From Azolla caroliniana (lineage: Eukaryota; Plantae; Polypodiophyta), in NCBI GenBank assembly GCA_043228905.1, contig JBHGNT010000008.1, positions 3,100,001 to 3,164,000 of the forward strand: 64,000 nt of DNA, given 5' to 3'. The position numbers were made by a program, and so were the translations under genes. Below the pieces are notes generated by a model. It ran no database searches and was not told where the DNA came from. It saw nothing but the letters and a program-made list of their open reading frames with translations. Positions 3,665 to 31,907 of this stretch are shown here, piece by piece. Position 1 is the stretch's first letter. Each line of letters opens with the position of its first letter.

Positions 3665-6600
3665 TCAGTATGACTGATGCTTCAAAACCCATTGCACCAA
3701 AGTGTTCACTGCAAATCCGGTAGCAATTTTCTTTTTGTCATTCCAGACAGGTCCAGCAATATCAAGGTGAGCCCATGGTATATTTTCATCAACAAACTGC
3801 AATTTGTTAAAGAATTTGTTGTAATGTAATCAGTAGCCAGTATATGCACTTTACAGTTCAGTCAATTGCGTGTCATATATTGGAGATACTCTAAATTCTA
3901 ATGAATATGTAATGCTCAATATTAAATATAATAACAAATTGACAAATCTATATATACCTGCTTCAAGAATAGAGAAGCTGTAATTGATCCACCTGCTCGA
4001 GGACCCGTGTTAACCATATCGGCAATGCTCGATTTCATTCCTTCCCAATAAGCTTCTTCTAGTGGCATTCTCCATAGTTTCTCCCCAGCCTTTTCACATG
4101 ATTCTGACAGTTCCTTTGCAAGCTCATCATTTGGGCTGAACAAGCCTACCAAATCGAAATATGGTTGATCATGGCTTTAAGGAAAGCAAAACCACACTCT
4201 GAATTCTTATTAAAGAGGCAACCAAAGAATACCTCCTATATCATTTCCAAGCGCAATAATAGCTGCTCCTGTTAATGTAGCTAGGTCGACTATCTGCTAA
4301 TACATCAGAGATACATGTAGAGATCTATCATCTTTCCTTTGCATAGAAATGTCTCATTCCTGACCTTCCATTTAGATCCTACCTAAGCCTGGAAATGAGA
4401 ACCTATCATTTTTCCTTCATCTAGAAAAGTCTCATTACTTTTCCTTCCATTTAGATCCTTGCTAAGTTTGGAACATTAAAATCTAACATTTTTCCTTCAA
4501 GCCAAAAAGTCTCATTCATTTTCCTTCTTTTAGATTTGATCAAAGTTTGGAATAAGTTAAAATCAATGTCGAGCATCGATAAGATATACGTAAGGTTCCA
4601 AATAAAATAATGCATTGACCTTTTCAACTCCTAGCTTACAGGTATACACCAGTACATCAGCCAATACTAGTCTACCTTCTGCATCTGTATTATTCACCTG
4701 CATGTAAAATCCGTTTAGCTATTGGATCTTATACCTTCATGCTAGGTCTAAAAAACAGTGAAATTGAAACTGTACCTCAATGGTTTTTCCATTTGAAGCT
4801 GTTATTATATCACCTGGCCTCATGCCTGCACCACTGATCATATTTTCACAAGCTCCAACAATAAAATTCACCTGCACAAAAATATCCTCCGATGCAATTA
4901 TCATTAACATTTTTGGAAGAGAACAGTAACCTTGACTATATCATTCCTCCTATGTAGAGTTTTTATTTTGAGGATTCTTGACAATATGATTCTAAGGGAT
5001 GGAAATTTGTAAACAGTACAGAAGACTACAAATGATCATTCTTTATACCAGCATGATCTCTATTGAAAAAAATCCAATCTTCTCAGATATCATCATTCCT
5101 AGTAATCAATATTGATGATGGTAGTGATAGTAGAGGAAACTCATCATTTCTCAAAGTTAAGAAGTTCACTCCATTATGTTAAAAGAATAGTTGTTCTCAG
5201 AGGAGAATCGAAATATATACAGGAACGTTCCCTCAATAAATAAAAAACAAGAACCAAAAGCGAACCTCACAATTTTTCAGACTTAAAGAGACATAAGGGA
5301 AACAAAATGAAACCATCAAATAAAGCTAAAAGAATAGACAACTGCAATATAAAAATGTCAACTAAAGCTCAAGCTTATATTTGATGTTCTCAGGTATGTA
5401 AATTTCACGTGATGTCATAAGATTAGATCACTCATAATAGAAGGAAATGAACCTCAACAGAATATTTGACAATATGATTAACATGATGAATCCCTGCTGC
5501 AAACAGTAAAGTAAGTAAGCCTTGAAATAAAATTTCCCGACAAGGAAAACCTGGAGATAGAATTCACAAAGAGTCTACACTACCTCAACACCAAGAGGAC
5601 GTATGGCAGCAATTGCTTTAGCAGCACCAAAGGCAGCTCCAGCTCCTCCCATATCAAATTTCATAAACTCGATTGAAGATCCCGAAAGCTTCAAATTGTA
5701 ACCTCCACTGTTTATAAATAAGTTTAAATAATGAGTTTTACAAACTATCTAATGTGAGCAATGAAAATTAATCTATCAAACTACATGTTCTCTTACAGTA
5801 TTAATAAAGCATGACAAACAAATGGAGACACAATGTGTGAGCCCGCAAAAATGTATGACAAGAAAATGGCCTTAAAAACTAAAAGAAACAATAAGAAGAT
5901 GAAGAAGAAGATTATTTTAGGCAAAAGGAACAATCACAAAAAATTTAAAACCCCTAAAATCTGAAAATTCCAACTCATCAGCTAAGGAAAATATACTATA
6001 TTCTACAATGAATATGATCTTATGAGCTAAATGAATATTTAAACCAATCTTTCTATTCTGAAACAAAGGTTCAGCTGTTTTTGATAAACAAAACAACACA
6101 CCTGTGAGCCTCAATGCAAACCCATATCTGATGACTGTGTTGTCAACGTAGGATATGGTCCGTCTCAAAGTGTTATAGGCATAACCTTATAGACCAGTTA
6201 TATAGCTAATTATAGTGGGTTAAGTGTGGGATAGATGGGAAACCAATTATTGTAGGATCTGGGACAAACCCATAAGGACCTATGACACAATAGAACATCC
6301 GGTGGTTTGGGAGCCATCCGTGTTGGGCTAAATATAAAAGGGGATCACTATCACCTTCATTACGGCATCTTGAGACATTGTTGGGACTCTATTAGTGAGG
6401 CTAAGCTCTCTTGTTCAGATCCGTTATTCAACTACCAAGGTATAACATAAAGTAATGTTACATGGTATGGGACACCAATGGTACTTAATGTTTGTCTCAT
6501 GTCCTTTGCTTAGGGGTGTTGGGTTGGTTAAGCACCATTAATCCATTCTTCTCCTTGATCTCTTATTCCTTTGCTTATCATTCATGTAATATTTACCATT

Positions 6601-8850
6601 ATTAATTTATTAGGTGTTTAGAATGGTAATGTTACCTGTCAAATGTCAAGCCTTTTCCAACAATTGCCAATTTAACATTTGTCTGACCACTAGGGGGCTT
6701 GTATTTAATGTGAATAAATTTAGGCGGATTGGTTGAGGCAGCAGCTACAGCAAGGTATGACCCCATCTTTAGTTCTCTACATTTCTCTTCATCAAGTATT
6801 TCTACACTCAAAACATCCTTAAAGGCTGAGGACAATCCCAAGGCCTCCTCTGCAAAACTAGCTGCACAAGCATAGGGAAAATAGAGCAGCATATACAATC
6901 AGAAGCATGTTCCAATTCAAATCGCAATGCTTTGGAGAGTTGTGGTCATAAAGAAAAGTGGCTTCTATACCAGGTGTGAGAACGTTTGCAGGGGAATTAA
7001 CAAGCTCTCTTGTGAAAATTACACCTTCAGATATCGTTTTACTCAGCTTAAGCTGATATTCCAATTCAGCTCCTTTTCCAAATCCAATGAATTCCAGATA
7101 CGTAAGGGTTGGGGTTTTTCTTTCCGACTTAAATCTTGTATCTTCATGTGTCCCCAAAATCACACCTGTTATGGCCATTATAAAACAATCAACATGTCTT
7201 GTTCAGTACAAAATGCAAATGATAAAATTAGTATTCTCCATCAAACAGTGAAGCATTTCAATCCCAACAACCAAACAAATTAGACAGGCTATGATTTAAA
7301 TTGAGTCCTGGAACACTGCTAGCTCACGAATAGCTAAGCATTTCAAATTCAACAACTAAAGGATTAGGAGGGCAATGATTTAATTTGACTTGTTGAACAC
7401 TCCCAGCTTATTTGAATTCATATGACGTAATTTTAGCAATGCAGAGGAACTGAAATCTCATAAATTTCTGAATAGATCTTAAAGACATACCCAAGGCGAT
7501 GGAATGAGCTCTAAGGTTTAAGGATGCCTCATCCACAGGTCCAAAATTTGCCAACGTAAGACCCAGAGACGTTGCTTGGGCAGACTTAGTAGCAGCTACC
7601 ACAGATTCTCCAAAGCTCCTCCAGTTTGCCGGAGTTAAGACACCTGAATTTTGATAGGCCACTAGGCCAATCCTTTTGAACTCATATCCAGATACTCGCA
7701 ATAATATAGACTGACCAGCTTTACCCGTAAAGTCTTCTTCTTTCACAACATCTGTTAGAATTCCTTTAAGAAGCTCGTCAAGTTTTTTCAGTGTTGCATT
7801 TTTAAAGCCTCCATCTTCCTCCTTTTCCAGATCAGATGTAGATGTTCCAACCACCAGTATATCTCCTTTCCAATGAGCTGGATCAAGCTCGGATGCAGAA
7901 GCACTAATCTGATATCACCACAGATATTGTACGGGCTCATTAAGTTTACTGAATTTAATGAATCAAAAATACATTTCTGCTCAGAAAGTGCAATTTGGTA
8001 TAAGACTAACAGTTAAAATTGTCAACGTAAAAAATCCTTAATCTGGGAAATGCTTGAAGCCAAATTTTGAACTTAAAATAGAACTAGTATCACTAACAAA
8101 ACAGTATACTGTGATGGATCTACAACAACTCAATATATTTAGACCAAGACCATTCATATTCTGGGATAAGGTCCCATGATCATAAATTTATTCACACAGT
8201 TTCTCACCATTTGATAATCATGTACACAGTACAAGTCAATAACTGAATTTCAGAACAAACTAAGGATTTATAATGTGATAGATCTAAAATAGCAGCATGA
8301 ATTCATCAGTAAAATTCCAAAATATAACCTTTGTGCCTATTCCAACCACATGAATCTCAGCTTGATATGAAGAATTGAAAAAATTTCTCGCAGCTGTCTT
8401 TCACTAATGCATAACCACACCTATTAAATCAGACTATTAAAATTTCACAACTCCTAAATTCATCTCTATCGTCCAACAAGGCATCTGGTCATAGTTTTTG
8501 TTGCAGGCGTTGGAGAAACCATCAGTAAGAGGACAAGGTTGGAGTAGGACAAACACCAGTAGGTGAGCAACAATATAAAGGGAAATAAACAGGATCATAC
8601 ATCATGGGGATGCAAGAGGCAATGAAGACCATGATTGGAGAGAATCTGATTTAAAAAGAGTGCCTTATTACAGTTTTTTTCTCAAGAATACGCACATATT
8701 AGTCTCCACGGATAAAGGTTTTTAATTGAGCAACACTTTTAAGTGCTCCAGATTGACACTCTGTGGAAAGATAACTCGAATGCAATCAAAGGTGGACAAT
8801 TGTAGAGAGAGTGTGCATGTGCTTGTGTGTACATGCATGTTTGTGTGGGC

Positions 8851-8882
<32 letters not shown>

Positions 8883-10407
8883 GAGCTTTTGAGTTTGTGT
8901 ACTTGTGTGCTCGTGTGCTCGTGTGTCTGTGTGTGCAAGAAACAATATGCCATTCTGCAGAATCTTCCGTGATATGTGATGTGCATGCAGGTTGAGGACC
9001 CACACTTTCAGGCATTGACCAGTATCTATTCCAATTAACAGCCTGTTCTTGCCGTTCTCCTCCTCCATGGAACACTTCCAAACACAAATTAGGTTTAAAA
9101 ATTACCCAAAAAACTCCAGGGAGCATTGGTATCCTTAGAAAAAAAACAAGATTGATTGAGACATGACTGTGTTTTAAGATCAAACTTGAAGCACGTGTCC
9201 ATCCTCCAAAAGGAATCAGATCAGATCAACTCATAAGAGCCTTTCCATGCTTTGAATAGCATCAGATCAGCCTTGGCAACAAATTATGCCACAAATAAGC
9301 TAAATAACTCATAGAACATTTCTACGCTCTGAATAGGTATAATATTAAACTTGGGAGTATAGAAGTACATGAGTAGGTATAAGACTTAAATACATGAATT
9401 TGCTTTAAGATCAGGGATTTACACTACAAATTAAGTTTAAACAAGGCATAAAAATCAGACTTTCAGTGAGAATTAATGTGCAGATAGAGCACATGCGCGA
9501 ATCTCTATCTTAGAAAAAAGGATAATATCAAGTTTGAATTCAAGAAACTGCCGTAAGCTCAGTTTTCCAATCATAAATTAGCATAAAACAAGATCAAAAG
9601 AATTCCAAATATAATATGTATCTGATCACATTGCAATTCAAAGACACGAATTTTCTTCAGATCACACTTTGCGTTCAAAAACTAGGTAGAAAATAGACTG
9701 CACACCTCCTATGGTGTCCAATAAGGGTATCAGATCAACTTTCAACATGAATTTTAGGCAAGATCAGACTTTCAGCCACAAATTAGATAAGAGTAAATAT
9801 CTAAACAGCTTTCATTTGCACAATGAGAGAGGATAAATCAAACAGAAACAATGAAAGAAATGGATAATAAAAGCCAAGAATTAGGAAGAACACGATGGTT
9901 AAGTTAGCTAGTTCGTTGCCTGTTGAGTGATGCGGTTGGAAGGAACCGTCAATCGAAGGGAATGTTTCAGGTTACAGAAATTGAAGCAGAGGCAGTGAAA
10001 GGATGGGAGAATGAAAACAGAAAATTAGGAAGATGAGTAAGATGGACATCTTCGTTAGTTATACCTGTTGAACGATGGAATTGGAAGGAAACTTCAATCC
10101 AAGGGGATGTTACAGATTATATGAATAGACGCAGAAACAGTGAAAGGAAGGGAGAATAATAACAGCAAAATTTAGGAAGCAGAAGAAGAAGAAGAAGATG
10201 GTTACTTAGTTAGTTACCTGTTGAACGATAGAGATGGGAGGAATCATCAAACGGAAGGGATGTTAAAGGTTATAAGAAAGGAATCATCGATCGGAAGGGG
10301 ATTGTTACAGGCTATAAGAATAGAATCAGAAGCAATATGATAGTTCGTTCACTCACCTGTGGAAGGATGGAGTTGGAAGGGGTCGTCAATCCAAGGGAAG
10401 GCGCCAT
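3665..10407 (-). CDS. LAP: Leucine aminopeptidase (M17 family), 10 exons, ~522 aa, no obvious in-frame transit peptide
   Basis: Exons (-): 10357-10407, 7491-7908, 6971-7165, 6636-6861, 5584-5707, 4776-4871, 4620-4697, 4233-4293, 3958-4145, 3665-3796. All introns GT-AG; total 1569 nt in frame. Motifs [43 protein letters not shown]; N-terminus [19 protein letters not shown] resembles plant LAP1. Confidence 0.96.
4320..4555. repeat. Three degenerate ~78 bp tandem copies in a LAP intron
   Basis: Repeated atcatttttcctt..gtctcatt..ccttccatttagatcct..aagtttggaa unit. Confidence 0.75.
6138..6475 (+). mobile_element. Possible solo LTR plus PBS-like remnant in a LAP intron
   Basis: Begins TGTTG, has a TATAAAAG box near 6333, ends ..TGTTACA followed by TGGTAT; higher GC than the flanking intron. 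No TSD confirmed. Confidence 0.3.
8805..8940. repeat. (GT)n microsatellite with degenerate flanks in LAP intron 1
   Basis: Pure GT run at ~8851-8878 within TG-rich sequence. Confidence 0.95.
9900..10400 (-). repeat. Tandem ~140-150 bp copies, each containing the 3' part of LAP exon 1 plus its splice donor
   Basis: CCCTT..TTGA..CC..CA..CATC....ACAG|GT/GC recurs with junctions at 10357 (true), 10218, 10065 and 9920. Confidence 0.8.
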
Positions 10408-14133: not shown

Positions 14134-17100
14134 GTGAAATGCACATAAGAGATCAAAACCAATCCACTTAGCTTCTTACTTCTTGCTCAATTTATAGTTG
14201 ATACAAAGGTACCCATTTGGGTTGGCTTAGCTAAAAAGGGCGTGCTAAAAGGGTGGGTCGTCTTAGGTACATGCATCCTAAAAAGGGCGTGCTCAAAGGG
14301 TGGCACAAAGGAACACATGCACACCACATTCCCCCCCTGAGAGAAACAAGAGATTGAGGAGTAGGAACAGGAACAAGAGCAATGACTTGTCGAAGGAGGG
14401 TGAGCATTTGTTTGAGATAGAGCTCCCACAACCTAGTGCAACGTGTGAACACACACCCTTTGAGAATCTATGATCACGTACAGGTCAAGAGTCACACCAC
14501 TACTCTCTACACATTAACTATGTGTCATAGAATCATATTCTATGACACATAACTAATGAGTTTCATATTCCCCATGACTAATGAGTCTTCACATTCCCAA
14601 GAGAGAGTGGTTGTTGTAGAAAGTTAATGAAGAGAGAGGGTGACCATATAAAGCACCCTCCTGCTTCATACTAAGTCGGTTGTGACTCCTTGTAATGCTA
14701 CATTTTTAATTGGTATTCTCCTTGTGAATATACATCCTCTTCTTGAGTATTCCATTTTCCTCTCACACATACACATAAGACACACCTCTTCCGTAGCACA
14801 AGAATCATACCATGATTCTTTACTTGGTATCAGAGTGGTTTGGTAGCTCGATCTAGCCCATTTTCGTGTGTTGTGTTCTACGCCGATGTTCAAGAAGAAC
14901 CGACTCATCGTTATCGTAGTGCGACTACATAGCTCGTGTTCGAGAGAGAAGGAAAAGAAGAAAGAAAGCTTCATTGACAATGAATACTCAAATGGGGAGC
15001 GCTCTCCCTAGCGAGAAGTTGGATCGAAACAACTTTGCATCTTGGGAGTACAAGATGCACCAATACCTTGTCAATCAAGGACATTGGAACATAAGAAAAT
15101 CGACCTGACCCGAAAGACGTTGACTACTCAACATGAGAGCAAGCGGCAAGCTGAGTGATGTATTGGTTAGCGACATGTGTTCATGACCACATGCTCGACT
15201 TCATTCAAGAAGCCGAGACGCCGAAGGAAGCATGGGAGAATCTCAAGAAGATTTTCGTCGCCAACACGACGACACGAAAGCTTCAACTCCGCCAAGAGTT
15301 GAACAACATCCAACAAAGGGATATGTCCATCACAAGCTACACCTTGAAGATCAAGGAGCTTTGTGACTCACTAGGCTCAATAAGCGTCAATGTGGATGAT
15401 GATTAGATGGTGAAAATATGCCTCGACGGCCTTGCACCACGATTCAACACGATGAGGACCACCGTACTAGCACGAGAGAATCCTCCCTCTTTCACCAATC
15501 TTCAATCCATGTTGTTGGTCGAAGAAAACCATGTTCGAACAAGAAGCAATGCCTAAGAAGGCCACATGCTCTACACACATTCGAACGGAGGAAGAGGACG
15601 CGGCCGATTCGGCCAAGGACAAGGCAGACAAGGCTCGACTTACGAAAACAACTCACAATTTCGGCAACAAGATGGAAGCCATCGAGGAACCTTCAGAAGT
15701 AGGGGGAGCTTCCATTCTAGTCCGAGTTGACAAAACTCGATCGAATGTGGATATTGTGGCAAAATTTGCCACCACGACGAAGAGTGCCAAAAGAAGATGT
15801 GCGAGTCGGCTTCCACTAGCTGACAACTCACCAATTACGCCACCAACTCCAACTATGATGATCATGGCAGAATGTTCGTGATGAGACAGACATAGAGCAA
15901 ATTCTATGTCGGCTTCTACTTCAACTAGTGCCTCCGGTCTAGAAGACGTATGGTTCGTCGACTCTGGTGCCTCGAACCATATGACGTCTCATCAAGAATG
16001 GTTCCAAGACCTTCAAGTGGCGGATCGACCCGGCTATGTCGAAACCAGAGAAGACACTACTCATATGATTCGGCATATCGGCAAACTTACATTAAGAATG
16101 TCTTGCATGTACCAACTATTACTCAGAAGAATTTCATGTCTCCGTCAACCAAATTGTTGAGCAAGGGATGCAAGTTTGATTTAATCAAGGCGGTTGTTTC
16201 ATCGAGGAAAAGGGTCGACTCATCGCTCCCGCACGAAGAGAGGACCGAATGTTCATTCTCGACTCGCACGAGATGAAATCGGCCATGTTTGCAAAATGCA
16301 CCAAAGCCGACACCGACATAGAGTTGTGGCACAAGAGGATTGACCACATCAACCTCCAAAAGCTCAAGGCAATGCAATCGAAAGGAGTCATCATTGGACT
16401 CCCGACCTTCAAAGAGAAAGAGATTGAAGGCGTATGTGCAACATGCCAATTCTGTAAGCAACATCGACACCCGTTTCCATAGGAGAGGAACGTGAGAAAA
16501 GGTGTACTCGACGTAATTCATTCTGATGTATGGGGACCGACTTAAATGGCTACATTCGACGGATGTCGATACTACATGGCCTTCATCGACGACTTCTCCA
16601 GGCACACCTGGATCTACCCCATGCGGCAAAATAACGAAGTGTTCAGACACTTCCAGAAATTCAGAAGGGAAGTCGAAAAGACAATCGGTAGTCATGTGGG
16701 ATGTCTTCGATTAGATGGAGGAAACGAGTAGCTCTCCAACGAATTCTTGGCTTTTCTCCGGAAAAAAGGAATTCAGCAAGAGTTTTCGTGTCAACATACG
16801 CCACAATAGAACGTAGTAGCCGAACGAAAGAATCAACACATCCTCGAAGTAGCATGGGCCATGCTTAACGAGAAGCACATGCCGAAGTCGTATTGGGCAG
16901 AAGCCGCCAACACAGCCGTCTACCTAATGAACTAGTGTACAACATCCAGCGTGCATGAGGTTACCCTGCACGAGAAGTTTTTCGGAAAGAAGCCGGATCT
17001 ATCGCATGTTCGGATATTCAGATCCATTGCATACGTGCACATCCCCGATGAGAAGCGACAAAAGCTTGACCCAAAGTCGGAGAAATGTATCCTTGTAGGA

Positions 17101-17446
17101 CATTCACTAGAGCAAATGGGGTACAAGTGCTATAACCCCTCTACGCGTAAGGTTCGTGTAAGCCGAGATGTAGTCTTCGACGAATCGACATCATGGTACG
17201 AACCCGAGCCAAATCCTCCCGAACCATTTCCAGTCGATCCGGAATCCGCCGAACAAGAGATAGAAGATGGAGATCGACTCGAACACATGTTCAAAGAAAG
17301 TCTGATTATGACAAGGCTTAGTGGGCCACAAGAACCCTTGAGCGACCAAAGCACATCTTGGCCTAGTCCGAAGATGGACAAAGGCAAGGCGAAAATGCCA
17401 GAATATGAAGACGATCAATTCGACGACAACGAATCGACTCACTCAT

Positions 17447-17905
17447 TCGACAGTGAGTTCGGTGGTTTCAATGTACCTATCATGAGGACACATGGCGTAA
17501 AGAAAGCCATTGCCAAGACAAACGAAAAACTCTGTCGCTCCACCCATGAGAAGAATCATGTAAGCCGATTCGGCTACAATAATTATATGGCATACCACTA
17601 TGTCTTTGTGATGAAGGTGGCAACAATTCGAGAACCGGAAAGTTTTTCGGAAGCAGCCAAGGATCCACGATGGGTCGACAGTGAGTTCGGTGGTTTCGAT
17701 GTACCTATCATGAGGACACATGGCGTAAAGAAAGCCATTGCCAAGACAAACGAAAAACTCTGTCGCTCCACCCATGAGAAGAATCATGTAAGCCGATTCG
17801 GCTACAATAATTATATGGCATACCACTATGTCTTTGTGATGAAGGTGGCAACAGTTCGAGAACCGGAAAGTTTTTTGGAAGCAGCCAAGGATCCACGATG
17901 GGTCG
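17447..17905 (+). repeat. In-frame 228 bp tandem duplication in the Copia integrase-RT linker
   Basis: Near-identical copies start at 17447 and 17675 (DSEFGGF..KDPRWV twice), joined at a TCGA microhomology. Confidence 0.95.
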
Positions 17906-18740
17906 AAACAATGAACGAGGAGATGCGCGCACTATGCAAGAAATGAGACATGGGATCTCGTTCCCCACTCACCGCACAAGAAAGCAATCGGCTGCAAATG
18001 GATTTATAAGGTGAAGTATAATGCCGATGGCTCCGTCAACCACTAAAAAGCTCGACTCGTAGCAAAAGGATACGCATAGACACATGGAGTCGACTACGAA
18101 GAGACATTTGCCACGGTGGCAAAGATGACGACTGTGTGGACCGTGATCGCACTCGCAGCAGTGGAAGGGTGGCATCTCCACCAGATGGACGTCAAGAACG
18201 CCTTTCTTCAAGGCGAATTAGAAGAGGAGGTGTACATGGTACTGTCAGGAGATGGCAAGACTCGAACCCATGACCTTATGGTATATGGGTCGAACTCTTA
18301 ACCATCTCACCATCTATTGTAATTCATAGAATATTATTTTCATTTATGTTTTATTATAAGAAAGTAATGTATATTCCAGATTTCTCTGGAACATTCTAGA
18401 AGCTTCAGGATTATTCCTGAGAACACTATAAAAGAAGGCACTAAGCATTATGTTGAACCAAATTGGTTCAACACCAGTCTTAAGCCTCTTAGTCGATTTG
18501 TACTTATCTTTCATATAATATAAGAGCTGTTGTCATCATCCTATTTCCCTCTCTCTCTCCTCTTCTCACTTCCTCTCTCTCGGGAATCTTACGCAGTCCC
18601 GTCCCCTTAGTACTAATAGTACTACTCTTCTTAGTACTAATTCCATCTCTGTTTTAGTACTATTCCTGACAGTTTGAACCAATTTTTTCCTCTAGCCTAC
18701 TTGTCACTCTCCCTCATCCTCCTACCCTTTCCCCTATACT

Positions 18741-19898
18741 ATGGCTACTGTTAGCGCCCAAGAATACCAATCTGTTTTCTCCGAGCTACAGTGCCTAAAA
18801 GAAAAGTTTGTTGCCTTGGAACAAGAAAACCAACGGCTGATAGGGGATCTGCAACAAATCGCTCTAGAAAAACAACAAACGCAACAACAACATGGGGAGT
18901 TAGCGTTACGGGTACAACAACTCGAAGCAGCGTTGCAACAACAAGGATCCAGTCCCCAAGGATTTCATAAAGAGCCCAAGATTGGACTTCCTGTGAAATT
19001 TGATGGAACGCGTTCGCAATTTCGGGGATTCCTTAATCAGGTACGCTTAGTCATCCAGATGCATCCTTCCCGATATCCCACTGATGCATCTCGAGTCGGC
19101 CTAATAGGCACGCTACTTAGCGGCTCAGCCTTGGCATGGTTCGCTCCGCTTCTAGAAAAACAATCGCCCTTGCTTAATAACTTTGAAGATTTTATTGGTG
19201 AGTTTAAAGCCTGCTTTGGAGACACCGACAGCATCAGGACGGCGATCAACAAGATCCGGCGATTGCGTCAAGGCGATCGTCCAGCCTCTGCCTACGCGGC
19301 GGATTTCCGCCTACTTGCTTCAGATATACCCTGGGATGATCAAGCACTAATGGAGCAGTTTCGCTATGGCTTGCGAAACGATGTCAAAGATCTACTTCTA
19401 ACTTTCCCCGAAGAACCAAAGTCTCTTACGGAGGCAATCAGTCGAGCAGTTCGATGTGACAACCGCCTTTTTGAACGGCGTTCAGAACGTCAATTACAGA
19501 TACCACGCTCTAGGCCAGAGCCCACTTACGCCGCAGTCGCGGCTAAACCGTTTGCACGAGACATACCTCAAGCAAATACTTCGACACCGATGGAGATCGA
19601 TACCATGCGTCGACGCGGCCCGTTATCGGAAGAAGAAAAGCAACGACGACGTGCCAATCGATTATGCCTTTATTGCGGTGGACCAGGACATATCGCCATC
19701 AATTGTCCCCATAGGCCAAGAAGACAGGTAAATCAAATTGTCGCCTGTACTAAACCTGAGTCAATTCTTCCCTTCGGAGTGTCTGATAGTAGTAATAGTA
19801 CTAATAGAGTGTCAGATAGTATTCATAGTACTAATAGCCCAAGTATCTCAAATAAATTTGAAATCCTTAGTCAATTAGATGAAGAGTTAAACGATTGA
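18741..19898 (+). CDS. gag: Gag (coiled coil, retrotransposon capsid, CCHC zinc knuckle)
   Basis: 385 aa ORF with PVKFDG, LRQG, PMEID and CLYCGGPGHIAINC motifs. Confidence 0.95.
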   Translation: MATVSAQEYQSVFSELQCLKEKFVALEQENQRLIGDLQQIALEKQQTQQQHGELALRVQQLEAALQQQGSSPQGFHKEPKIGLPVKFDGTRSQFRGFLNQVRLVIQMHPSRYPTDASRVGLIGTLLSGSALAWFAPLLEKQSPLLNNFEDFIGEFKACFGDTDSIRTAINKIRRLRQGDRPASAYAADFRLLASDIPWDDQALMEQFRYGLRNDVKDLLLTFPEEPKSLTEAISRAVRCDNRLFERRSERQLQIPRSRPEPTYAAVAAKPFARDIPQANTSTPMEIDTMRRRGPLSEEEKQRRRANRLCLYCGGPGHIAINCPHRPRRQVNQIVACTKPESILPFGVSDSSNSTNRVSDSIHSTNSPSISNKFEILSQLDEELND

Positions 19899-22800
19899 GT
19901 CCAGCCAAAATAGGAGCCATTTGGTTGGACAGCAGCCCTAGATCTGTACAGCCCATTAGTGGTTCCATTCCTTCCAAGCAAGTTAGCAATGTGTTCCTAG
20001 CCCAAGTCATTGTTAGTACTAAAAGTACTCCCCCAGTACCCGTCCTAGCACTTTTAGATTCCGGAGCTAATTCCTGTTTCATGGATCGAAATTTTGCCCA
20101 AGCTTCTCAGATATCCTTAAGAAAACTTCCTTGTCCCGCATCTGTAGTGGTCATTGATGGTCGTCCCATTGCTTCCGGGAATATTGTAGAAGAATCAGAA
20201 CCCATTCAAGTTGTCCTAGGTAGTTTTGTGTGTATAATATCATTTAATATAATTAGTAGTCCAGAGCATCCCATTGTCCTAGGATTACCTTGGCTTGAGT
20301 TACATAATCCAGCCATAGATTGGAGAACAAGAGAAGTCCGATATCGACCACCCCAAGAATCAACTCGCCGAGTTTCGACCATTTCACTCCATCAACTACG
20401 CGAAGAAGGACCCAAGGAGGCAATGTTCCTATTTTCCATATCAGTACATCCTTCCAGCACTATTAAGAAGGACTCCTCAGTACAACTTCCGGCAAAATAT
20501 CATCCTTATGCCGATGTATTTGACAAGGTAAAAGCCGGTACCCTTCCTCATCACCGTCCCTATGACTGTCCCATCGATTTACAACCAGGAACCGAGCCAC
20601 CATGGGGACCAATTTACAACCTGTCACCCACCGAGTTAGAAGTCCTTCGAGCCTACATAGAGGAGAACTTGGCAAGCGGGTTCATCCGTCATTCGAAATC
20701 TCCGGCCGGTGCACCCATCTTCTTTGTCAAGAAGAAAGATGGCTCACTTCGTCTTGTCGTTGATTACCGCGGATTAAATAAAGTCACCATCCGGAATAGG
20801 TATGCACTTCCTCTTATATCAAGTCTTTTAGAGCGAGTTAATGGTGCCAAGTTTTTTACTAAAATCGACCTACGCGGAGCGTATAATCTCGTGCGGATCC
20901 GACCGGGAGATGAGTGGAAGACCGCTTTTCGCACGCGGTATGGGCATTTTGAGTATACTGTTATGCCGTTTGGCCTAACCAATGCACCCGCAGTCTTCCA
21001 ACACATGGCAAATGATATATTCAGAGACCTCTTGGATATCTGTTTGATCATTTATCTGGATGATCTGTTGATTTATTCGAAGACCCAGGAAGAGCACGAC
21101 TCTCATGTACTATTAGTACTAAAGCGACTCCGCGAGAATGGTCTTTATGCCAAGCTAGAAAAATGTAGCTTTGACTGCAAGCAGGTGGAATTTCTAGGCT
21201 ACGTCATCTCCTCAAAGGGCATCGCCATGGATCCAGCTAAGATCCAAACTGTACTAGAGTGGCAAATTCCACGGTCGGTACGAGATGTACAATGTTTTCT
21301 AGGTTTTGCTAACTTCTACCGTAAGTTTATACAGGATTACTCGAAGATTATTTTACCTCTCACACAACTTACGAAGAAGGGCCAAGCATTTCTTTGGTCC
21401 ATTGAAGCAGATATGGCTTTTCGGCATCTTAAGAAAGCCTTTACATCAGCACCGATTCTAGCTCATGTGGATACAAGCAAACCATTCATCATGGAGGCCG
21501 ACGCATCAGATTTCGCCCTCGGTAGCATCCTTTCTCAACAAGGTGATAAAGAAGAGTTGCATCCGGTGGCTTTCCATTCGCGCAAATTCGATGTCGCAGA
21601 AATCAACTACGAAATACATGACAAGGAGTTATTAGCCATCATGGATTCATTTGTACAATGGCGGCATTTCTTAGAGGGCTCTCCACATCAGGTCATTGTC
21701 TTTAGCGATCATAAAAATCTTGCTTATTTTCAGAACGCTCGCGTACTAAATCGACGGCAAGCTCGGTGGGCGCAATTCCTCACGCGTTTCGACTTCAAAA
21801 TCACATATCGACCGGGGAAGCAGCAAGGAAAAGCAGATGCACTATCACGACGTTCATATCTTGCACCTCGTCCTGGTGAAGCAACATTTGATAATCAAAA
21901 GCAAGTAATCTTGGGACCAACACGATTGCACACGACGCGGATTTTTCACACCCCGATGGATTCACGGATTACCGATGACATACGTGCAACCTTGAAGACG
22001 GATAGTTTTGCTCAAGACATCCTGGCGCACATTGATACTTCTCGGGCATCCTGTTCTCAGTCTCAACAACCAGGTATTGACTACCGACAATTCGAATATC
22101 ATGATGGTTTGTTATTCTTTAAAAAGCGCGTATATGTCCCCGATTGCTCCTGTCGCCTTCAAATTGTCCAACATTGTCACGACACCCATACGGCGGGACA
22201 TTTCGGTAGTACTAAGACGTTGGAGCTAGTGCAGCGATCTTTTTGGTGGCCCCACATGCGCCGTTTTGTCGACGACTACGTTCGGACCTGTGATGCTTGC
22301 TGCCGAGCAAAGATGCCACGACACCATCCATATGGCTTGTTGGAACCTTTACCAATTCCAAGTAAGCCATGGCAGTCTATTTGTCTTGATTTTATCACAG
22401 ATCTGCCGGTCTCGAAAGGGTTCGATGCTATCCTAACCGTCGTCGATCGATATACGAAGATGGCACATTTTGTGCCATGTACTAAAGCCATCACTAGCGA
22501 GGAAACCGCCGCTCTTGTTATGCGTGAGGTTTTTCGGCATCATGGCCTCCCAGACAGTATTATCAGTGACCGAGGCCCGCAATTTGTCTCCAAATTTTGG
22601 CAGCATCTCTTCAAGATGCTCAAGGTCTCCTGCAACCTCTCCTCCGGCTACCATCCTCAGACCGATGGACAGGCGGAACGAACAAACCAAACGCTGGAGC
22701 AATATCTCCGGTGTTTCCTGAGTTATCAACAGGACGATTGGGCCGAGATTCTCCACTTTGCGGAGTTTGCGTATAATAATGCTATTCACTCCTCGACTCG

Positions 22801-23467
22801 GGTCTCCCCATTTTTCGCTTATACCGGTTTCCATCCCCGCTGGTCGGTGATCGACACTCCGGAGCTACCTACCAACCCTCGTGCCGAGGATCATTTGGAG
22901 AGGCTACGCAAGATCCAGAAGGATCTCTCTACTCACCTTCGTCAGGCTCAACACACACAGAAGACTTATGCGGATCGTCATCGGATTCCCTCCTCTTTTG
23001 CCATCGGAGATCGAGTATGGCTCTTACGTCGTCACATCAAGACTACTCGACCGTGCGACAAGTTGGATTATCGACGACTCGGTCCTTTCCGTATTACGGG
23101 GAAGATTAATGATGTCACCTTCCGCCTTGATCTCCCTCCGCAGCTTCAGATACATCCGGTTTTCCATTGTTCTCTTCTTGAACCTTATAAAGCAAACACC
23201 ATTCCCGATCGTGTGACACCACCGCCGCCCCCACTGGAGTTGGACGCCGGCCCGGAGTATGAAGTTGCTGACATCCTCGATTCCAAACTTGTTCGCAACA
23301 AACTCTATTACTTGGTCGATTGGCTCGGTTATAGTCCGAGCGAACGTACTTGGGAACCCGTCGAGAATGTTGCCAATGCACAAGATCTTCTTGCTGATTT
23401 CCACCGAAAGTATCCGGACAAACCCGGTCCGCAAGTAGCGCTGACTCGTTCCACTCGTCGTCTTTAA
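19883..23467 (+). CDS. pol: Pol (protease, RT, RNase H, integrase, chromodomain), in the -1 frame relative to gag
   Basis: LLDSGA protease, YLDD RT, RNase H EADASD..DHKNL, HHCC plus DDE integrase, GPF motif, C-terminal chromodomain EYEVADILD..YLVDWLGY..TWEP. Confidence 0.96.
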   Translation, partial: RVKRLSPAKIGAIWLDSSPRSVQPISGSIPSKQVSNVFLAQVIVSTKSTPPVPVLALLDSGANSCFMDRNFAQASQISLRKLPCPASVVVIDGRPIASGNIVEESEPIQVVLGSFVCIISFNIISSPEHPIVLGLPWLELHNPAIDWRTREVRYRPPQESTRRVSTISLHQLREEGPKEAMFLFSISVHPSSTIKKDSSVQLPAKYHPYADVFDKVKAGTLPHHRPYDCPIDLQPGTEPPWGPIYNLSPTELEVLRAYIEENLASGFIRHSKSPAGAPIFFVKKKDGSLRLVVDYRGLNKVTIRNRYALPLISSLLERVNGAKFFTKIDLRGAYNLVRIRPGDEWKTAFRTRYGHFEYTVMPFGLTNAPAVFQHMANDIFRDLLDICLIIYLDDLLIYSKTQEEHDSHVLLVLKRLRENGLYAKLEKCSFDCKQVEFLGYVISSKGIAMDPAKIQTVLEWQIPRSVRDVQCFLGFANFYRKFIQDYSKIILPLTQLTKKGQAFLWSIEADMAFRHLKKAFTSAPILAHVDTSKPFIMEADASDFALGSILSQQGDKEELHPVAFHSRKFDVAEINYEIHDKELLAIMDSFVQWRHFLEGSPHQVIVFSDHKNLAYFQNARVLNRRQARWAQFLTRFDFKITYRPGKQQGKADALSRRSYLAPRPGEATFDNQKQVILGPTRLHTTRIFHTPMDSRITDDIRATLKTDSFAQDILAHIDTSRASCSQSQQPGIDYRQFEYHDGLLFFKKRVYVPDCSCRLQIVQHCHDTHTAGHFGSTKTLELVQRSFWWPHMRRFVDDYVRTCDACCRAKMPRHHPYGLLEPLPIPSKPWQSICLDFITDLPVSKGFDAILTVVDRYTKMAHFVPCTKAITSEETAALVMREVFRHHGLPDSIISDRGPQFVSKFWQHLFKMLKVSCNLSSGYHPQTDGQAERTNQTLEQYLRCFLSYQQDDWAEILHFAEFAYNNAIHSSTRVSPFFAYTGFHPRWSVIDTPELPTNPRAEDHLERLRKIQKDLSTHLRQAQHTQKTYADRHRIPSSFAIGDRVWLLRRHIKTTRPCDKLDYRRLGPFRITGKINDVTFRLDLPPQLQIHPVFHCSLLEPYKANTIPDRVTPPPPPLELDAGPEYEVADILDSKLVRNKLYYLVDWLGYSPSERTWEPVENVANAQDLLADFHRKYPDKPGPQVALTRSTRRL
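19886..19942 (+). promoter_or_regulatory. Putative -1 programmed ribosomal frameshift signal
   Basis: Heptamer G_TTA_AAC (19886-19892) in the gag frame, 6 nt spacer, then an 11 bp stem GTCCAGCCAAA/TTTGGTTGGAC. Confidence 0.8.
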
Positions 23468-25179
23468 GGGGGAGATAGTGTCAGGAGATGGCAAGACTCG
23501 AACCCATGACCTTATGGTATATGGGTCGAACTCTTAACCATCTCACCATCTATTGTAATTCATAGAATATTATTTTCATTTATGTTTTATTATAAGAAAG
23601 TAATGTATATTCCAGATTTCTCTGGAACATTCTAGAAGCTTCAGGATTATTCCTGAGAACACTATAAAAGAAGGCACTAAGCATTATGTTGAACCAAATT
23701 GGTTCAACACCAGTCTTAAGCCTCTTAGTCGATTTGTACTTATCTTTCATATAATATAAGAGCTGTTGTCATCATCCTATTTCCCTCTCTCTCTCCTCTT
23801 CTCACTTCCTCTCTCTCGGGAATCTTACGCAGTCCCGTCCCCTTAGTACTAATAGTACTACTCTTCTTAGTACTAATTCCATCTCTGTTTTAGTACTATT
23901 CCTGACAGGTACAACCACCCGGTTTCGAATCCAGCATTCATCCGAAAGCCATCTACCAACTCAAGAAGCTTCTCTACAGCCTTAAGCAAGCACTGCGTGC
24001 TTGGCATTCAAAGATAATGCAATATCTTCATCAAATGGGCTTTCGAATGTCGAAATCTGACAACTCCCTCTACGTACGAAACGACTCTAGAAGCCCGATT
24101 GTTGTCATCCTATACATGGATGATCTAGTTATTGGAGATGAGCATTTAGTTGGCATCAACAAGGTGAAGTCCCTCCTCTCCAACAAATTTGAGATGACGG
24201 ACATGAAGGAGTTCCATTACTTCCTTGGCATCGAGGTAATTCGGACTCCGGCCGGCATTATGATCTTTCAACGACACTACATCCTTAACTTGTTATTCAA
24301 GTTCGGGATGGCTGAGTGTAAACTTGTGGCAACCCCTCTCGATCGAAACCTCAAACTGGATGCCGACTCCGGCACAGAAGAGTGCGAGCCGACTCAATAT
24401 CGACAACTAATCTGGAGTCTCATCTACTTCACGATCACTCGACCCAACCTAAGCTATTAGGTCGGCCTCCTTAGCCAATTCATGCAAACTCCACGAGATA
24501 TCCATTTGGATTGTGCTAAGCGAGTTTTACAATACGTGAGCGGCACAATGGATTGTGGTATTCTCTACGAATCAGTCACACTAATTCGACTAGAAGGGTA
24601 CACAGATGATGATTGGGCTGGTTGCATAGCCGATTGACATTCAACCTCCGGATTTGTCTTCTCGCTCGACATCGGAGCAATATCTTGGAGTAGTAAGAAA
24701 CAGCCTATTGTCACACTTTCGAGCACGGAGGCTGAATACAGAGCCACAGAACACACATCTCTTCTGTTGCACAAGAATCATACCACGATTCTTTACACTA
24801 TCCATGTTGGCAAGTGTCGAATGGACATCAATGGACAATTCTGGTGGAAGGCAAGCGTTACGTCCATAAAATGCTAGAAAAGGGTTGATCTGTGTTGACA
24901 TACGTACAGATGTATTGTAGGCGTGGGTGATGAAAGACAAGATTTGATCCCAGGTTTTGTAGCATGGATCGATGTAAGCGGGGATCTCCTTCTTGAGGGT
25001 CTTGTTGAAGCATCCAGTGAGGCCATTTGTCTGAGGATGGTATTGGGACTTAAACACTTGTTGGACACCTAGTTGAGCTGCAACAACGTTGAGGACATCC
25101 CTGTGGAACTTATGACCTTGATAATATAATAGTTGGACGGGGCTTGTGATAGAAAACGAGTTAACAATTGGTAGATAGA

Positions 25180-27122: not shown

Positions 27123-30100
27123 ACCTATCAATTGGAATGGAGATAATTGGAGGTTGATGTGGCTGAATGCTGGAATGATATGTGGGAGTTTTCATAATTC
27201 TTGCATTAAAAAACAGATTTTACTATGCCTAGAGGAGATGATAGACCCTCTTGATGAGGTGTTGCACTTCCATGAGGAGGAAATGGCTGAAGCTACAAGG
27301 CAAGATGTTGTTTTAGGATGGGAGAGGATCAATTCGAGAGGTTGGGCATGGGCTCGTGGGGAGGGACTATGTCCGGCTTGGGAGACCTCACAATTGTTCT
27401 CATGAAATTAATCACGTGGAACATACAAGGTCTAGGCGGTAGCAAATGTATGTTGGAGAGGAAGAACCTCCGCCAAGAGTTCAAATCCCCTAGCTTTAGG
27501 GGGATCCCAGACATTTTGCTCTTGCAAGAGCACCATTCGAGTGCGAACAGAATCTCGAGTATTGGCAATCCTCTAGCGGGGGATTGGCATACTATTTGGT
27601 CCCCAGCGCAAGGTGAGCATGGTAGAAAAGGGGGTGTTTGTACATCTATTAAGAATAATCCAGATATAATTGTTGTGGGCCAAGGCACCATCGTGGAGGG
27701 ACGTGCCATCTAGTGACAATCAGATGGCAACAACGTATCATTGGAATAATAAATGTGTACGCGCCCAATTCGACAGTGATGCGGGCCCTTTTTTGGAGGC
27801 AATTGGCTGATGGATTGCCGATGGCAGATGCATGGATCCTCGCAGGGGATTTTAACATGACTATGCACGCAGAAGACAAGGTGGGGGGCATGCATACGGC
27901 GGTGCAGGGGTCAGAGCTAGTTGCATGGGATTTGTTGATGGGCAGAATGGGAGTGAAAGATGCTTGGTATGTACTAAAAAAGCCTCGGAGCTCATTACGC
28001 TTCTCAAGAGCAGGCTGTAATATAAATGGCTATTGTATGTCTCGCATAGACAGAATATACATAAGCTCGGAACTGGAAAAATATGGCAGTAATGTTGAAA
28101 TCATCGCAGGTTCAGCTTACTCTGATCACATGCCGGTTTCGATTACGTTGGTCACTCAGAGGCTGAACAAAAGGGACTGCAACTTAAGGATTAGTAATAA
28201 GCTTTTTGAGGATGTGGAGGTGAGAAGTAAGATAAGGAGTATATGGGAAAATAATCTAGCTGGTTGTGGTGCTTTGGATAATCTTCAAGGAAAGATTATT
28301 GAAACTTCAAAGTATTTGCATGAAGAGACTAAAAATAGATTGGAGAGATCTAAGGAAAGAGAGGTGAGACTAAGAAGATCGATAGCGGCTGCCCAAAGAA
28401 TGCTCCAGAAAAATCCCAAGTGTCTTTGGTCAAGATCAGGTTTGGAGGCTGCCAAAGAAACACTACAACGGCTGATTGTGTCAAGAAATAAGATGGTATT
28501 CAGGAGTTCAGCAGCTTGGTGGAGTAGGAATGGGGACAAGGTGAACCAACAATTTTTTAAGTTTAAAAAACCGTGCACAATTGGTAACTTCATTCCTAAA
28601 TTGATCAAGGAGGTTGGTTCACTGTCAAAAGATGTATCAGAGATCATGGAGGCAGTCACATCTCACTATAATGGGCTACTATCAAATAATTATAGTCTCC
28701 CAGACCAGCCCTCACTGGCAGAATTTGTATTGGAGGGAATGCAACCAAGAATTTCAGAGGTTGCACAAGTTAAGTTGTCAGGGCCACTCTTGGAAGAGGA
28801 GGTGTCAGATGCTCTGGCAAGTATATGTAGAACGTCTTGTCCAGGAGACGATGGATTATCAAAAGATTTTTATGAAAATTTTTGGGAAATAATTAAGGTT
28901 GACCTGGTTGCTGGACTAAATGAGGCATGGGATGATGGGTACCTCCCTGAACATTTTAAAGAGGGACTAATATTTCTAATTCCTAAGGTAAAGGGTATAG
29001 TATCAGATGTGAGGCAATGGAGACCGATTACGTTGCTCAACACAATCTATAAGATTTTTGCTAATATGCTGGCCAAGAGGGTCAAACCCCACTTACATGC
29101 GCTAATTAATGTTGGACAAACAGGATTCATGGAAAATAGATGTGTAATCGATAATGTGTTGACCTTTTGGGAAGCGATTGCCCTGGCGAAGAAAACCAAT
29201 CAACATATTGCATGCCTCATGCTTGACTTTGAGAAGGCATATGATAGAGTACAATGGCCTTTTTTAGACAAAGTCATGGAGCGGTTGGGACTACCCTCAA
29301 AATGGAGAGCAGCTGCGTTGGCGCTTTACAAAGGAAGCTTGAGTAGGGTGTTGGTACTAGGGCAACGGGGCCCATCAATTCCATTATGCAAGTCTGTCAG
29401 ACAGGGGTGCCCATTGGCCCCCTACCTTTATTTATTTATCTCAGAGGCATTCTCTTTCTTTTTAAATAGACCGGATGCAGGAATTCGAGGTTTGGTTGTC
29501 CCACATGCTTGTAAGGACTTGTTGGACTCCATGTATGCAGATGACACCATGCTCTATCTGCAAGGCAATGATGCTAATTTACAACAGGCTGAAAATCGAA
29601 TTGAGTTGTTCTGTAAAGCATCAGGTGGGAAAATTAATTGGAACAAAAGTAGAGGGTTTTGGGTAAGTCCAAACTCTTGGCCGAATTGGCAACCTAATGC
29701 TGATTTTCAATGGGTTCCTAATGGAAGGGTTGTTAAGTATTTGGGCTTTTTGGTGGGAATAGAGATTCAGAAAAATCAGCAACTTGAGCAAGTGAAAGAC
29801 AAAATCAGAAAAAATCTTCGGTTATGGGCATCAGTAAAGCTTTCCCTTGCAGGTAGAGTGGTTGTGGTAAACCATATTTTGTTGGCCACCATGTGGCACT
29901 CGTTGGCATGCTGGATGTTAGATAAAGAGTGCATAAAAAATATTAAGGCAATGGTGAGAGGGTTCCTTTGGTCGGGTAGAGACCATGAGACTGCTTCAGC
30001 TAAAGTGGCCTGGAGTTGTTTGATCAAGGCAAAAAGTCAAGGTGGACTTGGGATGGTGGATCCAGGTCACCAAAGTAAGGCTTTACTTGGTAAGCTCTTG

Positions 30101-31907
30101 GTGCGAAGTCTCCAACCTGGACCAGAATTGTGGAAATTGCTTCTTAGAGACAGAGCTGAACTCTGGAGTCCGAGGAATGGCGGCCCTTGGAAGGCAAAGA
30201 TGTGGTGGTTGTTTAGTCCAGGCCTAACGTTAAAAGAACTTACTAGCATGGAGGATAGGGTGGCCCGCACCATAATGAGGGCCTGGTCAGGTTGAAGAGA
30301 GGGGCTGGTCTTAATGCAGCCAAAAACAATGGAGGAACAACTCCGTCAACCTCTGTTTTGGAACCCCAGGATTCGAAGTGATGATGGTATGATGCTTGGT
30401 CAGAAAAAATACTTGCCATGGGGAAAAATGGTAGGGCACAATGTTAGTTCAGTAAGAGACTGGGAGGAGTTCAAAAGGAGAAGAAGGGAGGGTCTGGTTG
30501 GAAGTCCTCGATTTACCAGCAGGCTGGAAAAGGTTACCCACTTGATAGATAAGGTTGTTGATGGTCTAGCTAGGCTGAATGAAGAAGAGGGGGTCTGGTT
30601 TGGGTGGTTTGTAGGTGAGGGCGATGCACAAATTATCCGAGGCAAGTGCCCATCTAATGAGTATCGTTTGTGGGGCAACCTAAGTGCTTTGGCAGACAAT
30701 GGCCAATGGTTGGCAGTGCGAGTGGCAATGTTGGAAGGTAAGAAGTGGCAAGTAAACCCGGACCCAGGGAAGCTGGAATCTGATCGTAAACTCTGGATAG
30801 TTGACAACAAGCCCATATGTGATCTGGATTGGGATCCACTAGAGGTGTGGTGGCAGAAACCGGGTACAGACAAACTTGAATAGTTTTTCGAGTACACTAC
30901 CAAGCTAGGAAGGCAAATCATTGGCTCTAAATTGATGGGTGCTGGCCTAACTCGCAATAGTTGGAAGGATAAAGGCATTTCTGATGACTGGTTGAAGTCG
31001 TTTTGGAGGAGGCTATGGGCGTTTGATATGCCAGAAAAAATAAAGCTTTGGTTGTGGCTTCTTAGCCACAAAGCGGTGCCAGTGGGGGAGTGGCTTAGGT
31101 GTCGTGGTGGTGAGGCTGGATGCAAAAGTTGTGGACACCCTTTGGAATCAATTCCTCATTGTTTTTGGAACTGCAGCGAGGCTATTAACATTTGGGGTAG
31201 AAGTCTCAGGATAGTGGCAGCATGCGGAGTGAATGGGAGAGTTATATGGGGGTCCGTACAAGGGCTGAAGTTAACAGGGGAAGGCTGGGCTGAACAGTTA
31301 AATCCCCACGGACATGGTTTTATAGTGCAGGATGGCAAAGTGTTTCAACGGGCTGGAGTTCGACATGGCACTAACTCAGAATTTTTTGAGGAGATATGGA
31401 TGATGGTGTCTTGTTTATCGGTCTGACACATTTGGACCAACCGTTGTAAATTTGTTTTTCAACAACAAAAGATCCCTAGCGGTGAGGTATTATTAAATAT
31501 CTGGTTTGAGTTGGTATCTTGGCTGCGGGGACGATACGACTCAATCAAGGGGGAATCTGATGCAGCTGAAAGATCTCGATCAAAGTTCTTGCTGAAATGG
31601 GGTAATTCTCCTATGGTGGGCAGATCCTCATCAGGGCCTCAATGGAACTACCAAGCACCCCGATGGCTGTTTCCGGTTTCCAACAGCGTCTAGGTGCTGT
31701 AAATCTGTATAGATATGGTACAAATTATTAGGTTATTGGAGTTGTTTGGATACGTTTGTTGAAAATGAGGTGGGGACTATGTCCACTTTGGTGGGAAGGC
31801 CAGAGTGAGGGCTGGTGAGAAGAACTTTGGGTGTTCTATGATGTAATTTTGTTTGCTAACTAATGCGAAGTAGTGTTTTTTTGGAAAAAAAAAAAAAAAA
31901 AAACAAC
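27123..31907 (+). mobile_element. 5'-truncated L1/Tx1-like LINE (ORF1 tail plus nearly complete ORF2)
   Basis: ORF2 27402-31693: APE endonuclease (TWNIQG, LQE, GDFN, SRIDR, SDH), RT (DFEKAYD, RQGCPL, YADD), zf-RVT (CKSC..ESIPHCFWNC). One frameshift near 27710 and three in-frame stops. Poly(A) 31885-31903; TSD AACAACAACATAATT (27108-27122, 31908-31922). Confidence 0.95.

What the first reader, a model, noticed from the sequence alone, without database searches (positions are those of the whole stretch)
18427..18685. Plant chromovirus with a tRNA-independent, Tf1-like self-priming architecture
Seen: no TGG-type tRNA PBS follows the 5' LTR. Instead, 2 nt after the LTR end, TTGAACCAATTT (18674-18685) is the exact reverse complement of AAATTGGTTCAA (18460-18471), which lies ~33 nt downstream of the LTR TATAAAA box (18427), i.e. 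at the expected transcript 5' end. A 10 bp perfect inverted repeat TGTTGAACCA-AAT-TGGTTCAACA (18451-18473) also straddles that point, so the 3' LTR copy of R could be folded away. Established: fission yeast Tf1 primes reverse transcription with the first 11 nt of its own mRNA annealed to the PBS. Inference: this intact plant element self-primes, with an extra U3/R hairpin that may guard against mispriming. The decayed relative near 650 and 820 shows faint traces of the same pair.
Basis: partly seen in the sequence, partly recalled or inferred. Interest (0 to 1): 0.85.

Follow-up and report, generated by a model that had tools for sequence, protein, structure and literature searches.

The report
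Self-priming plant retrotransposon, primer-masking hairpin
A young, intact jumping gene in a probably non-seed plant has a primer-binding site that matches the predicted start of its own RNA, so it likely copies itself without a tRNA, as already predicted in print for its group; the newer part is a small hairpin, kept in several relatives, that is predicted to hide spare copies of that primer.

Summary
The core observation holds. The element (18243-23907) is an intact chromovirus with identical 429-bp LTRs. Its 12-nt PBS matches the LTR 33 nt below TATA (3 of 20,000 shuffles), and the 10-bp hairpin is real (8 of 2,000). In six close elements primer and PBS pair in 65 of 66 cells, with compensatory changes at 8 of 11 positions, which argues against a tRNA primer. 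Self-priming is already predicted for plant Tcn1 chromoviruses (83% of 1,500 elements; Neumann 2019), and this element fits their profile. The hairpin is the less-known part: significant in 8 of 27 elements and following different primer sequences, but weak in three close relatives. Folding models switch the primer away from the PBS when U3 is attached. Tf1's leader duplex is predicted in 1 of 7 hairpin elements against 14 of 17 without (by lineage p about 0.2). This scan noted self-priming and the hairpin before on other DNA. The claim about a decayed relative at 650/820 is not supported. No transcription start or cDNA data were available.

The parts
18238..18242 (+). 5' target-site duplication GGTAC
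   Evidence: same 5 nt at 23908-23912
18243..18671 (+). 5' LTR, 429 bp, TG...CA
   Evidence: identical to the 3' LTR
18246..18318 (-). degenerate antisense tRNA-like stretch with A-box-like and B-box-like motifs at the start of U3 (side observation)
   Evidence: not found by default ARAGORN or Rfam
18427..18433 (+). TATA box, 33 nt before the predicted +1
18451..18473 (+). U3/R hairpin: 5' arm 18451-18460, loop 18461-18463, 3' arm 18464-18473
   Evidence: 8 of 2,000 shuffles
18460..18471 (+). predicted self-primer, first 12 nt of R (start site inferred)
18672..18673 (+). 2-nt spacer GT between LTR end and PBS
   Evidence: a 2-nt spacer also in L001, L003, L005, L007, L074
18674..18685 (+). primer-binding site, exact complement of the self-primer
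   Evidence: 3 of 20,000 shuffles
18741..19898 (+). gag, 385 aa, with capsid and CCHC zinc knuckle
19883..23467 (+). pol frame (protease motif, RT, RNase H, integrase, SH3-like, chromodomain), overlapping gag by 16 nt in the -1 frame
23258..23410 (+). chromodomain with the three aromatic-cage residues
23466..23478 (+). polypurine tract
23479..23907 (+). 3' LTR
23687..23709 (+). 3' LTR copy of the U3/R hairpin, the copy present at the RNA 3' end (primer copy 23696-23707)
23908..23912 (+). 3' target-site duplication GGTAC

Best explanation
This is a recently inserted, intact Tf1/sushi-group (likely Tcn1-clade) chromovirus that likely primes its own reverse transcription with the predicted first 12 nt of its RNA, and whose U3/R hairpin is predicted to mask the other copies of that primer. 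Shown: the complement, the hairpin, their covariation in relatives, the element's anatomy. Inferred by analogy with Tf1: transcription starts at about 18460, the first 12 nt pair with the PBS, RNase H cuts them off, and RT extends across GT into U5. Inferred from folding models only: wherever U3 is attached to R (the RNA 3' end, plus-strand strong-stop DNA, transcripts that start upstream) the hairpin takes the primer copy away from the PBS, so only a correctly started 5' end can prime. Odds: self-priming about 0.9; hairpin maintained as a primer mask about 0.5.
For: Chance controls. RNA from +1 folds primer onto PBS, z -4.0, mean pairing probability 0.92. Six close elements: 65 of 66 cells pair, 8 of 11 positions with changes on both sides; primer against another element's PBS pairs only 4-11 of 11. 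TATA-like box 30-38 nt upstream in 23 of 27 elements. RT groups with fungal and vertebrate rows, apart from the seed-plant and algal rows (support 99, quick tree). Published Tcn1 profile matches. Hairpin: significant in 8 of 27 elements from 5 of 11 lineages (binomial 4e-8 at element level, not independent); the U3 arm follows different primers in L005, L007/L004, L015, L080, and own U3+R folds better than cross-lineage pairs. With 25 nt of U3 attached, primer-PBS pairing falls from 0.92 to 0.01; in a plus-strand DNA model it is 0.00, or 0.86 if the U3 arm is barred from pairing. PBS binding to R drops from -13.4 to -3.5 kcal/mol with U3 attached.
Against: No start site, cleavage or cDNA was observed. 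The hairpin is not significant in three close relatives under the stricter shuffle (L074 p 0.16, L001 0.42, L002 0.09), though they passed a looser one (0.013-0.023). In L001 the primer changed and the U3 arm did not follow, and the PBS still wins in the model (0.96); the same holds for L015 (0.98). 19 of 27 self-priming-type elements have no significant hairpin. In the window the share of primer bases masked is not beyond shuffles (p 0.40), only the stability is. A few contigs per run diverge just upstream of 18455-18456, which suggests subfamilies with a shorter arm. Many primers were found by scanning for a complement, so their number is not an independent test. No named Tcn1 reference was in the tree.
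Confidence: 0.6

Rival explanations
1. The element self-primes, but the hairpin is a by-product with no role in priming: fold-back template switching at the U3/R border creates and perfects inverted repeats, or the U3 bases are kept for promoter function.
For: Hairpin weak in L001, L074, L002 and not significant in 19 of 27 elements. The five U3 bases before +1 are the same in the five closest elements even where the primer core changed. The U3 arm matches R beyond the primer (to +14 or +16) and does not copy the bases upstream of the PBS, as a fold-back duplication would give.
Against: Long stems recur at this one place in 5 of 11 lineages with different primers, with different loop lengths and a bulge in L005; they tend to occur where the leader duplex is missing.
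Confidence: 0.25
2. The hairpin is functional but acts in another step: a 3'-end processing or strand-transfer structure at the RNA 3' end, or a switch that makes upstream-started transcripts unable to prime.
For: Start-site choice decides whether Tf2 RNA carries a self-primer (PMC5341516, passages). No AATAAA lies in this LTR. A transcript from -25 loses primer-PBS pairing in the model.
Against: No transcript data; the stem centres on the primer in each lineage, which fits masking most simply.
Confidence: 0.1
3. Priming is by a host tRNA fragment; the PBS resembles the complement of a tRNA T-loop (recalled motif) and the LTR match is secondary.
For: Half-tRNA priming exists in some plant copia lineages. 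Host tRNAs could not be compared: no genome is held and no tRNA gene lies in the window.
Against: The PBS changes with each element's own R start, including in the T-loop-like bases in L001, L005 and L007. No TGG follows the LTR.
Confidence: 0.05

Closest known systems
Plant Tcn1-clade chromoviruses (Novikova 2010, PMC2864245; Neumann 2019, PMC6317226; Novikov 2012, PMC3350952)
   Same: No tRNA PBS, LTR complement starting 0-5 nt after the LTR, 5-bp TSD, overlapping gag and pol frames, chromodomain with aromatic cage, length 5,665 bp within 5,466-9,444, probably non-seed host.
   Different: No U3/R hairpin is mentioned in the passages and the one supplementary table I read. SM-Tcn1 was reported with no recognisable primer site. 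No named Tcn1 element was in my tree.
Tf1/Tf2 of Schizosaccharomyces pombe and the Tf1/sushi 'pretzel' (passages of 10.1101/2022.12.06.519325, PMC7175516, PMC4600332)
   Same: Primer at the predicted RNA 5' end, paired to a PBS just after the LTR; RT groups with fungal and vertebrate elements.
   Different: 12-nt rather than 11-nt primer. The duplex between the leader after the PBS and R/U5 is not predicted here (p 0.5-0.8); a U3/R hairpin is present instead. From memory only, Tf1 may have a short U3 complement to its primer; I could not check this.
TAR-lineage copia elements (Houba, Osr-1), predicted self-primers in seed plants (PMC6317226)
   Same: Self-priming predicted in plants (89% of 203 elements).
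   Different: Ty1/copia superfamily; this element has gypsy domain order and a chromodomain.
Helenus TRIMs (Kojima 2024, PMC10886601), for the tRNA-like stretch in U3
   Same: tRNA-like sequence inside an LTR, not acting as the primer.
   Different: Helenus is non-autonomous and is thought to be transcribed from that sequence; here the stretch is degenerate, antisense, and in an autonomous element with a TATA promoter.

Membership tests
Tcn1 clade (plant Tf1/sushi chromoviruses) | RT clusters with fungal and vertebrate Tf1/sushi elements, apart from seed-plant chromoviruses | tested here: met
   (quick tree, 58 rows; only one seed-plant row); named hits are mostly amphibian, fish and fungal
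Tcn1 clade (plant Tf1/sushi chromoviruses) | RT falls in one clade with named Tcn1, SM-Tcn1 or Physcomitrella elements | tested here: inconclusive
   no named reference came back; the REXdb FASTA was too large to read
Tcn1 clade (plant Tf1/sushi chromoviruses) | Chromodomain with aromatic cage (group I) | tested here: met
   PF00385 E 1.7e-13; Y, W, Y at the cage positions by eye (positions)
Tcn1 clade (plant Tf1/sushi chromoviruses) | LTR complement of at least 10 bp starting 0-5 bp after the 5' LTR, no tRNA PBS | tested here: met
   12 bp at offset 2; criterion
Tcn1 clade (plant Tf1/sushi chromoviruses) | 5-bp TSD, overlapping gag/pol frames, length 5.5-9.4 kb | tested here: met
   against the table
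Tcn1 clade (plant Tf1/sushi chromoviruses) | Host is a moss or lycophyte | tested here: inconclusive
   neighbouring aminopeptidase exons: 62% to two Ceratopteris proteins, 58% to the eukprot Gb_18743 protein, 54-57% to four angiosperms; no moss or lycophyte protein was in the comparison
Tf1-type self-priming | [quoted passage not shown] | not testable with these tools
   only contigs were available; context fits (TATA -33, C/A at -1/+1)
Tf1-type self-priming | Primer and PBS co-vary across relatives | tested here: met
   65 of 66 cells, 8 of 11 positions compensatory
Tf1-type self-priming | Primer released by RNase H cleavage of the RNA duplex | not testable with these tools
   RNase H domain present; activity untested
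Tf1-type self-priming | Pretzel duplex upstream of the PBS (U5 end with R just after the primer) | tested here: inconclusive
   in the MFE of the window, L001, L003, L005 but weak against shuffles (window p 0.28; only L005 significant of 11)
Tf1-type self-priming | Pretzel duplex downstream of the PBS (leader with R/U5) | tested here: not met
   window -5.0 kcal/mol, p 0.78; absent in all six close elements, present in 15 of the other 18

The most novel reading that the evidence does not exclude
Self-priming retrotransposons have two interchangeable ways to tell the true 5' primer from its 3' copy: the Tf1 pretzel, which favours the 5' copy, and a U3/R hairpin, which disables every copy that has U3 attached. 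This plant lineage has lost the pretzel's leader duplex and uses the hairpin instead, and the swap has happened in several lineages.
Probability: 0.3. Interest if true: 0.65.

Novelty: new variant of a known kind. Interest (0 to 1): 0.4.

Why it matters
Self-priming in this plant clade is predicted in print but, in what I read, rests on sequence complementarity; the covariation here adds comparative support, and a young intact copy of a high-copy family is a good subject for mapping the start site and primer. The hairpin addresses a question that self-priming raises: the primer sequence occurs twice in the RNA and again in plus-strand strong-stop DNA, so something must stop the wrong copy from pairing with the PBS. 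If hairpin and pretzel are alternatives, that gives a directly testable design rule for this class of retroelements.

Tried and rejected
Own genome: none held, so no host tRNA comparison and no count of genomic copies. Sequencing runs: no RNA holder listed; only contigs, which cannot show a start site. Laying contigs on the 61-nt hairpin stretch gave no variant table. A 14-nt LTR/PBS pattern in viral contigs returned 80 loci that I did not analyse and take to be chance phage matches. Rfam found nothing credible in the LTR; default ARAGORN found no tRNA in the window; relaxed ARAGORN gave hits on both strands and is not evidence. Cluster look-ups and a short-RT search gave no named Tcn1 reference. 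The careful tree did not finish; the quick tree is used. The MAFFT alignment A1 misplaced the primers of L005 and L007, so pairs were counted by anchoring at the LTR end instead. Primary Tf1 papers and the 2015 review were not held. A search for Tcn1 in fern papers listed 20 of 180 papers, none with the term. Rejected: traces at 650/820; a tRNA primer; the U3 arm as a simple second copy of the PBS (it pairs with R beyond the primer).

Full report
Anatomy. The finding lies in the 5' LTR of a 5,665-bp element at 18243-23907. The two 429-bp LTRs are identical, flanked by the duplication GGTAC, with a polypurine tract before the 3' LTR. Gag (385 aa) and a pol frame overlapping it by 16 nt are open and carry RT, RNase H, integrase and a chromodomain. 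The element interrupts the RT frame of a decayed copia element. Contigs from four DNA runs lay on it by the thousand (4,130-8,348 per run on 901 bases), so the family is abundant. Exons of a neighbouring aminopeptidase gene match a fern better than seed plants (62% against 54-58%), with no moss or lycophyte in the comparison, so the host is probably a non-seed plant.

The observation. A match of 12 nt or more arose in 3 of 20,000 shuffles, a hairpin of 10 bp or more in 8 of 2,000. The side claim fails: the decayed relative's gag start maps to window 33-155, so 650 and 820 are not its LTR and PBS, and the best complement there is 6 nt.

Self-priming. RNA starting at 18460 folds the first 12 nt onto the PBS (z -4.0; probability 0.92). 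A metagenome scan found 592 stretches with a related RT and kept 79 loci; one more came from viral contigs. I could locate an LTR with its predicted start in 26 of these 80, taking only 3 of the 12 copies of one family with LTR pairs; the rest lacked the LTR, were near-copies left out, or I did not locate it. In the window and five close elements (L074, L001, L003, L005, L007), primer and PBS pair in 65 of 66 cells, with changes on both sides at 8 of 11 positions; a primer set against another element's PBS pairs 4-11 of 11. In all six the complement starts at an A after a C, 31-34 nt below a TATA-like box. The PBS therefore tracks each element's own RNA start and not a fixed tRNA. Among the 40 variant rows shown (203 not shown), none fell inside the primer or PBS; the one common change near the hairpin (18473, 61-87% of depth) turns its end pair into a G-U wobble. 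The start site itself is inferred.

What is known. Neumann et al. 2019 (PMC6317226; passages and supplementary file 5 read; files 1 and 3 too large to see and may bear on this) state that most plant Tcn1 elements lack a tRNA PBS and are predicted to self-prime like Tf1/sushi: 83% of 1,500 elements, 5-bp TSD, overlapping gag and pol. This element fits every listed trait, has the aromatic cage of group I chromodomains (PMC3350952, passages), and its RT groups with fungal and vertebrate rows (quick tree). No named Tcn1 reference was available, so clade membership is likely but not shown. The Tf1 mechanism and its three-duplex pretzel I take from passages of 10.1101/2022.12.06.519325, PMC7175516, PMC4600332 and PMC11042837; the primary papers were not held. 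The headline of the finding is thus already in print as a prediction.

The hairpin. Against dinucleotide shuffles of 26 nt of U3, the U3/R fold was significant (p at most 0.02) in 8 of 27 elements: window, L003, L005, L007, L004, L080, L015, L059, from 5 of 11 lineages (lineages, with L080 not in the tree). The U3 arm follows different primers, for example L005 against L007/L004, and own U3+R pairs fold better than cross-lineage pairs. Against this, L074, L001 and L002, all close to the window, are not significant in that test (they were in a looser one), and in L001 the primer changed without the arm. In models, attaching U3 moves the window's primer off the PBS: 0.92 to 0.01 in RNA, and 0.00 in plus-strand DNA against 0.86 when the arm is barred. 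Of 11 elements modelled, the RNA switch was strong in the window, L003, L005 and L059, partial in L074, and absent in L001, L015 and the four without a hairpin. U3 is attached to R at the RNA 3' end, in plus-strand strong-stop DNA and in upstream-started transcripts, so a mask would act in those three places. That function is inferred.

Hairpin against pretzel. The duplex between the leader after the PBS and R/U5, one of Tf1's three, is not predicted in the window or its five close relatives. Among the 24 elements with a visible PBS it was significant (p at most 0.05 at 18 nt, or at most 0.01 at 30 nt) in 1 of 7 with a hairpin and 14 of 17 without. Fisher p is 0.004 by element, but these are related; by lineage the split is 4 hairpin only, 4 leader only, 1 both, 1 neither, p 0.21. 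This is suggestive and is the most novel reading.

Novelty. Literature searches on self-priming with hairpin, pretzel, U3-R or stem-loop terms showed no description of a U3/R primer-masking hairpin in the listings and passages seen; subscription papers such as Butler 2001 and the Lin and Levin papers could not be read. Earlier notes of this scan report self-priming moss elements as known (e1-7364707, e1-7226285) and the same hairpin on other DNA (e1-7323663); my hairpin tests were designed before I saw them. The verdict is a known kind of element with a real, partly conserved extra structure of untested function.

Noticed in passing
window 18246-18318 (-) and its 3' LTR copy; L001, L002, L003 at the start of U3: Degenerate antisense tRNA-like stretch: A-box-like and B-box-like motifs 36-37 nt apart in the window, L001, L002 and L003, B-box only in L004, neither in L005, L007, L008. 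Rfam and default ARAGORN do not call it; the A-box pattern was read off these sequences.
   Followed up: partly
window 19888-19930: Likely -1 frameshift signal: a TTAAAC stretch at the gag end followed by a stem after the stop, conserved in L001, L003, L074 and partly L004.
   Followed up: partly
window about 15100-24760: The element sits inside the RT frame of a decayed copia element, which also has a 228-bp tandem duplication at 17447-17902.
   Followed up: partly
window 33-2640: Decayed relative of the same family; gag start near 33, with about 730 extra bases between 155 and 1044 relative to the intact element.
   Followed up: partly
L013, L019, L036, L042, L043, L046, L062 and kin: A distant family whose predicted self-primer pairs with the PBS across a 1-nt bulge, with a short R/U5 of about 90 nt.
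   Followed up: no
window 18603-18661: Repeated AGTACT palindromes in U5 form two small stems before the PBS, also in L074.
   Followed up: no
window about 3700-7914 (-): Intron-containing leucine aminopeptidase (M17) host gene.
   Followed up: partly
window 27659-31426 (+) and 49744-50871 (+): A LINE-type element (endonuclease, RT, zf-RVT) and a MULE transposase remnant.
   Followed up: no
P0035: A relative at 76% RT identity carries an extra PF00692 domain (dUTPase, name recalled) in pol.
   Followed up: no
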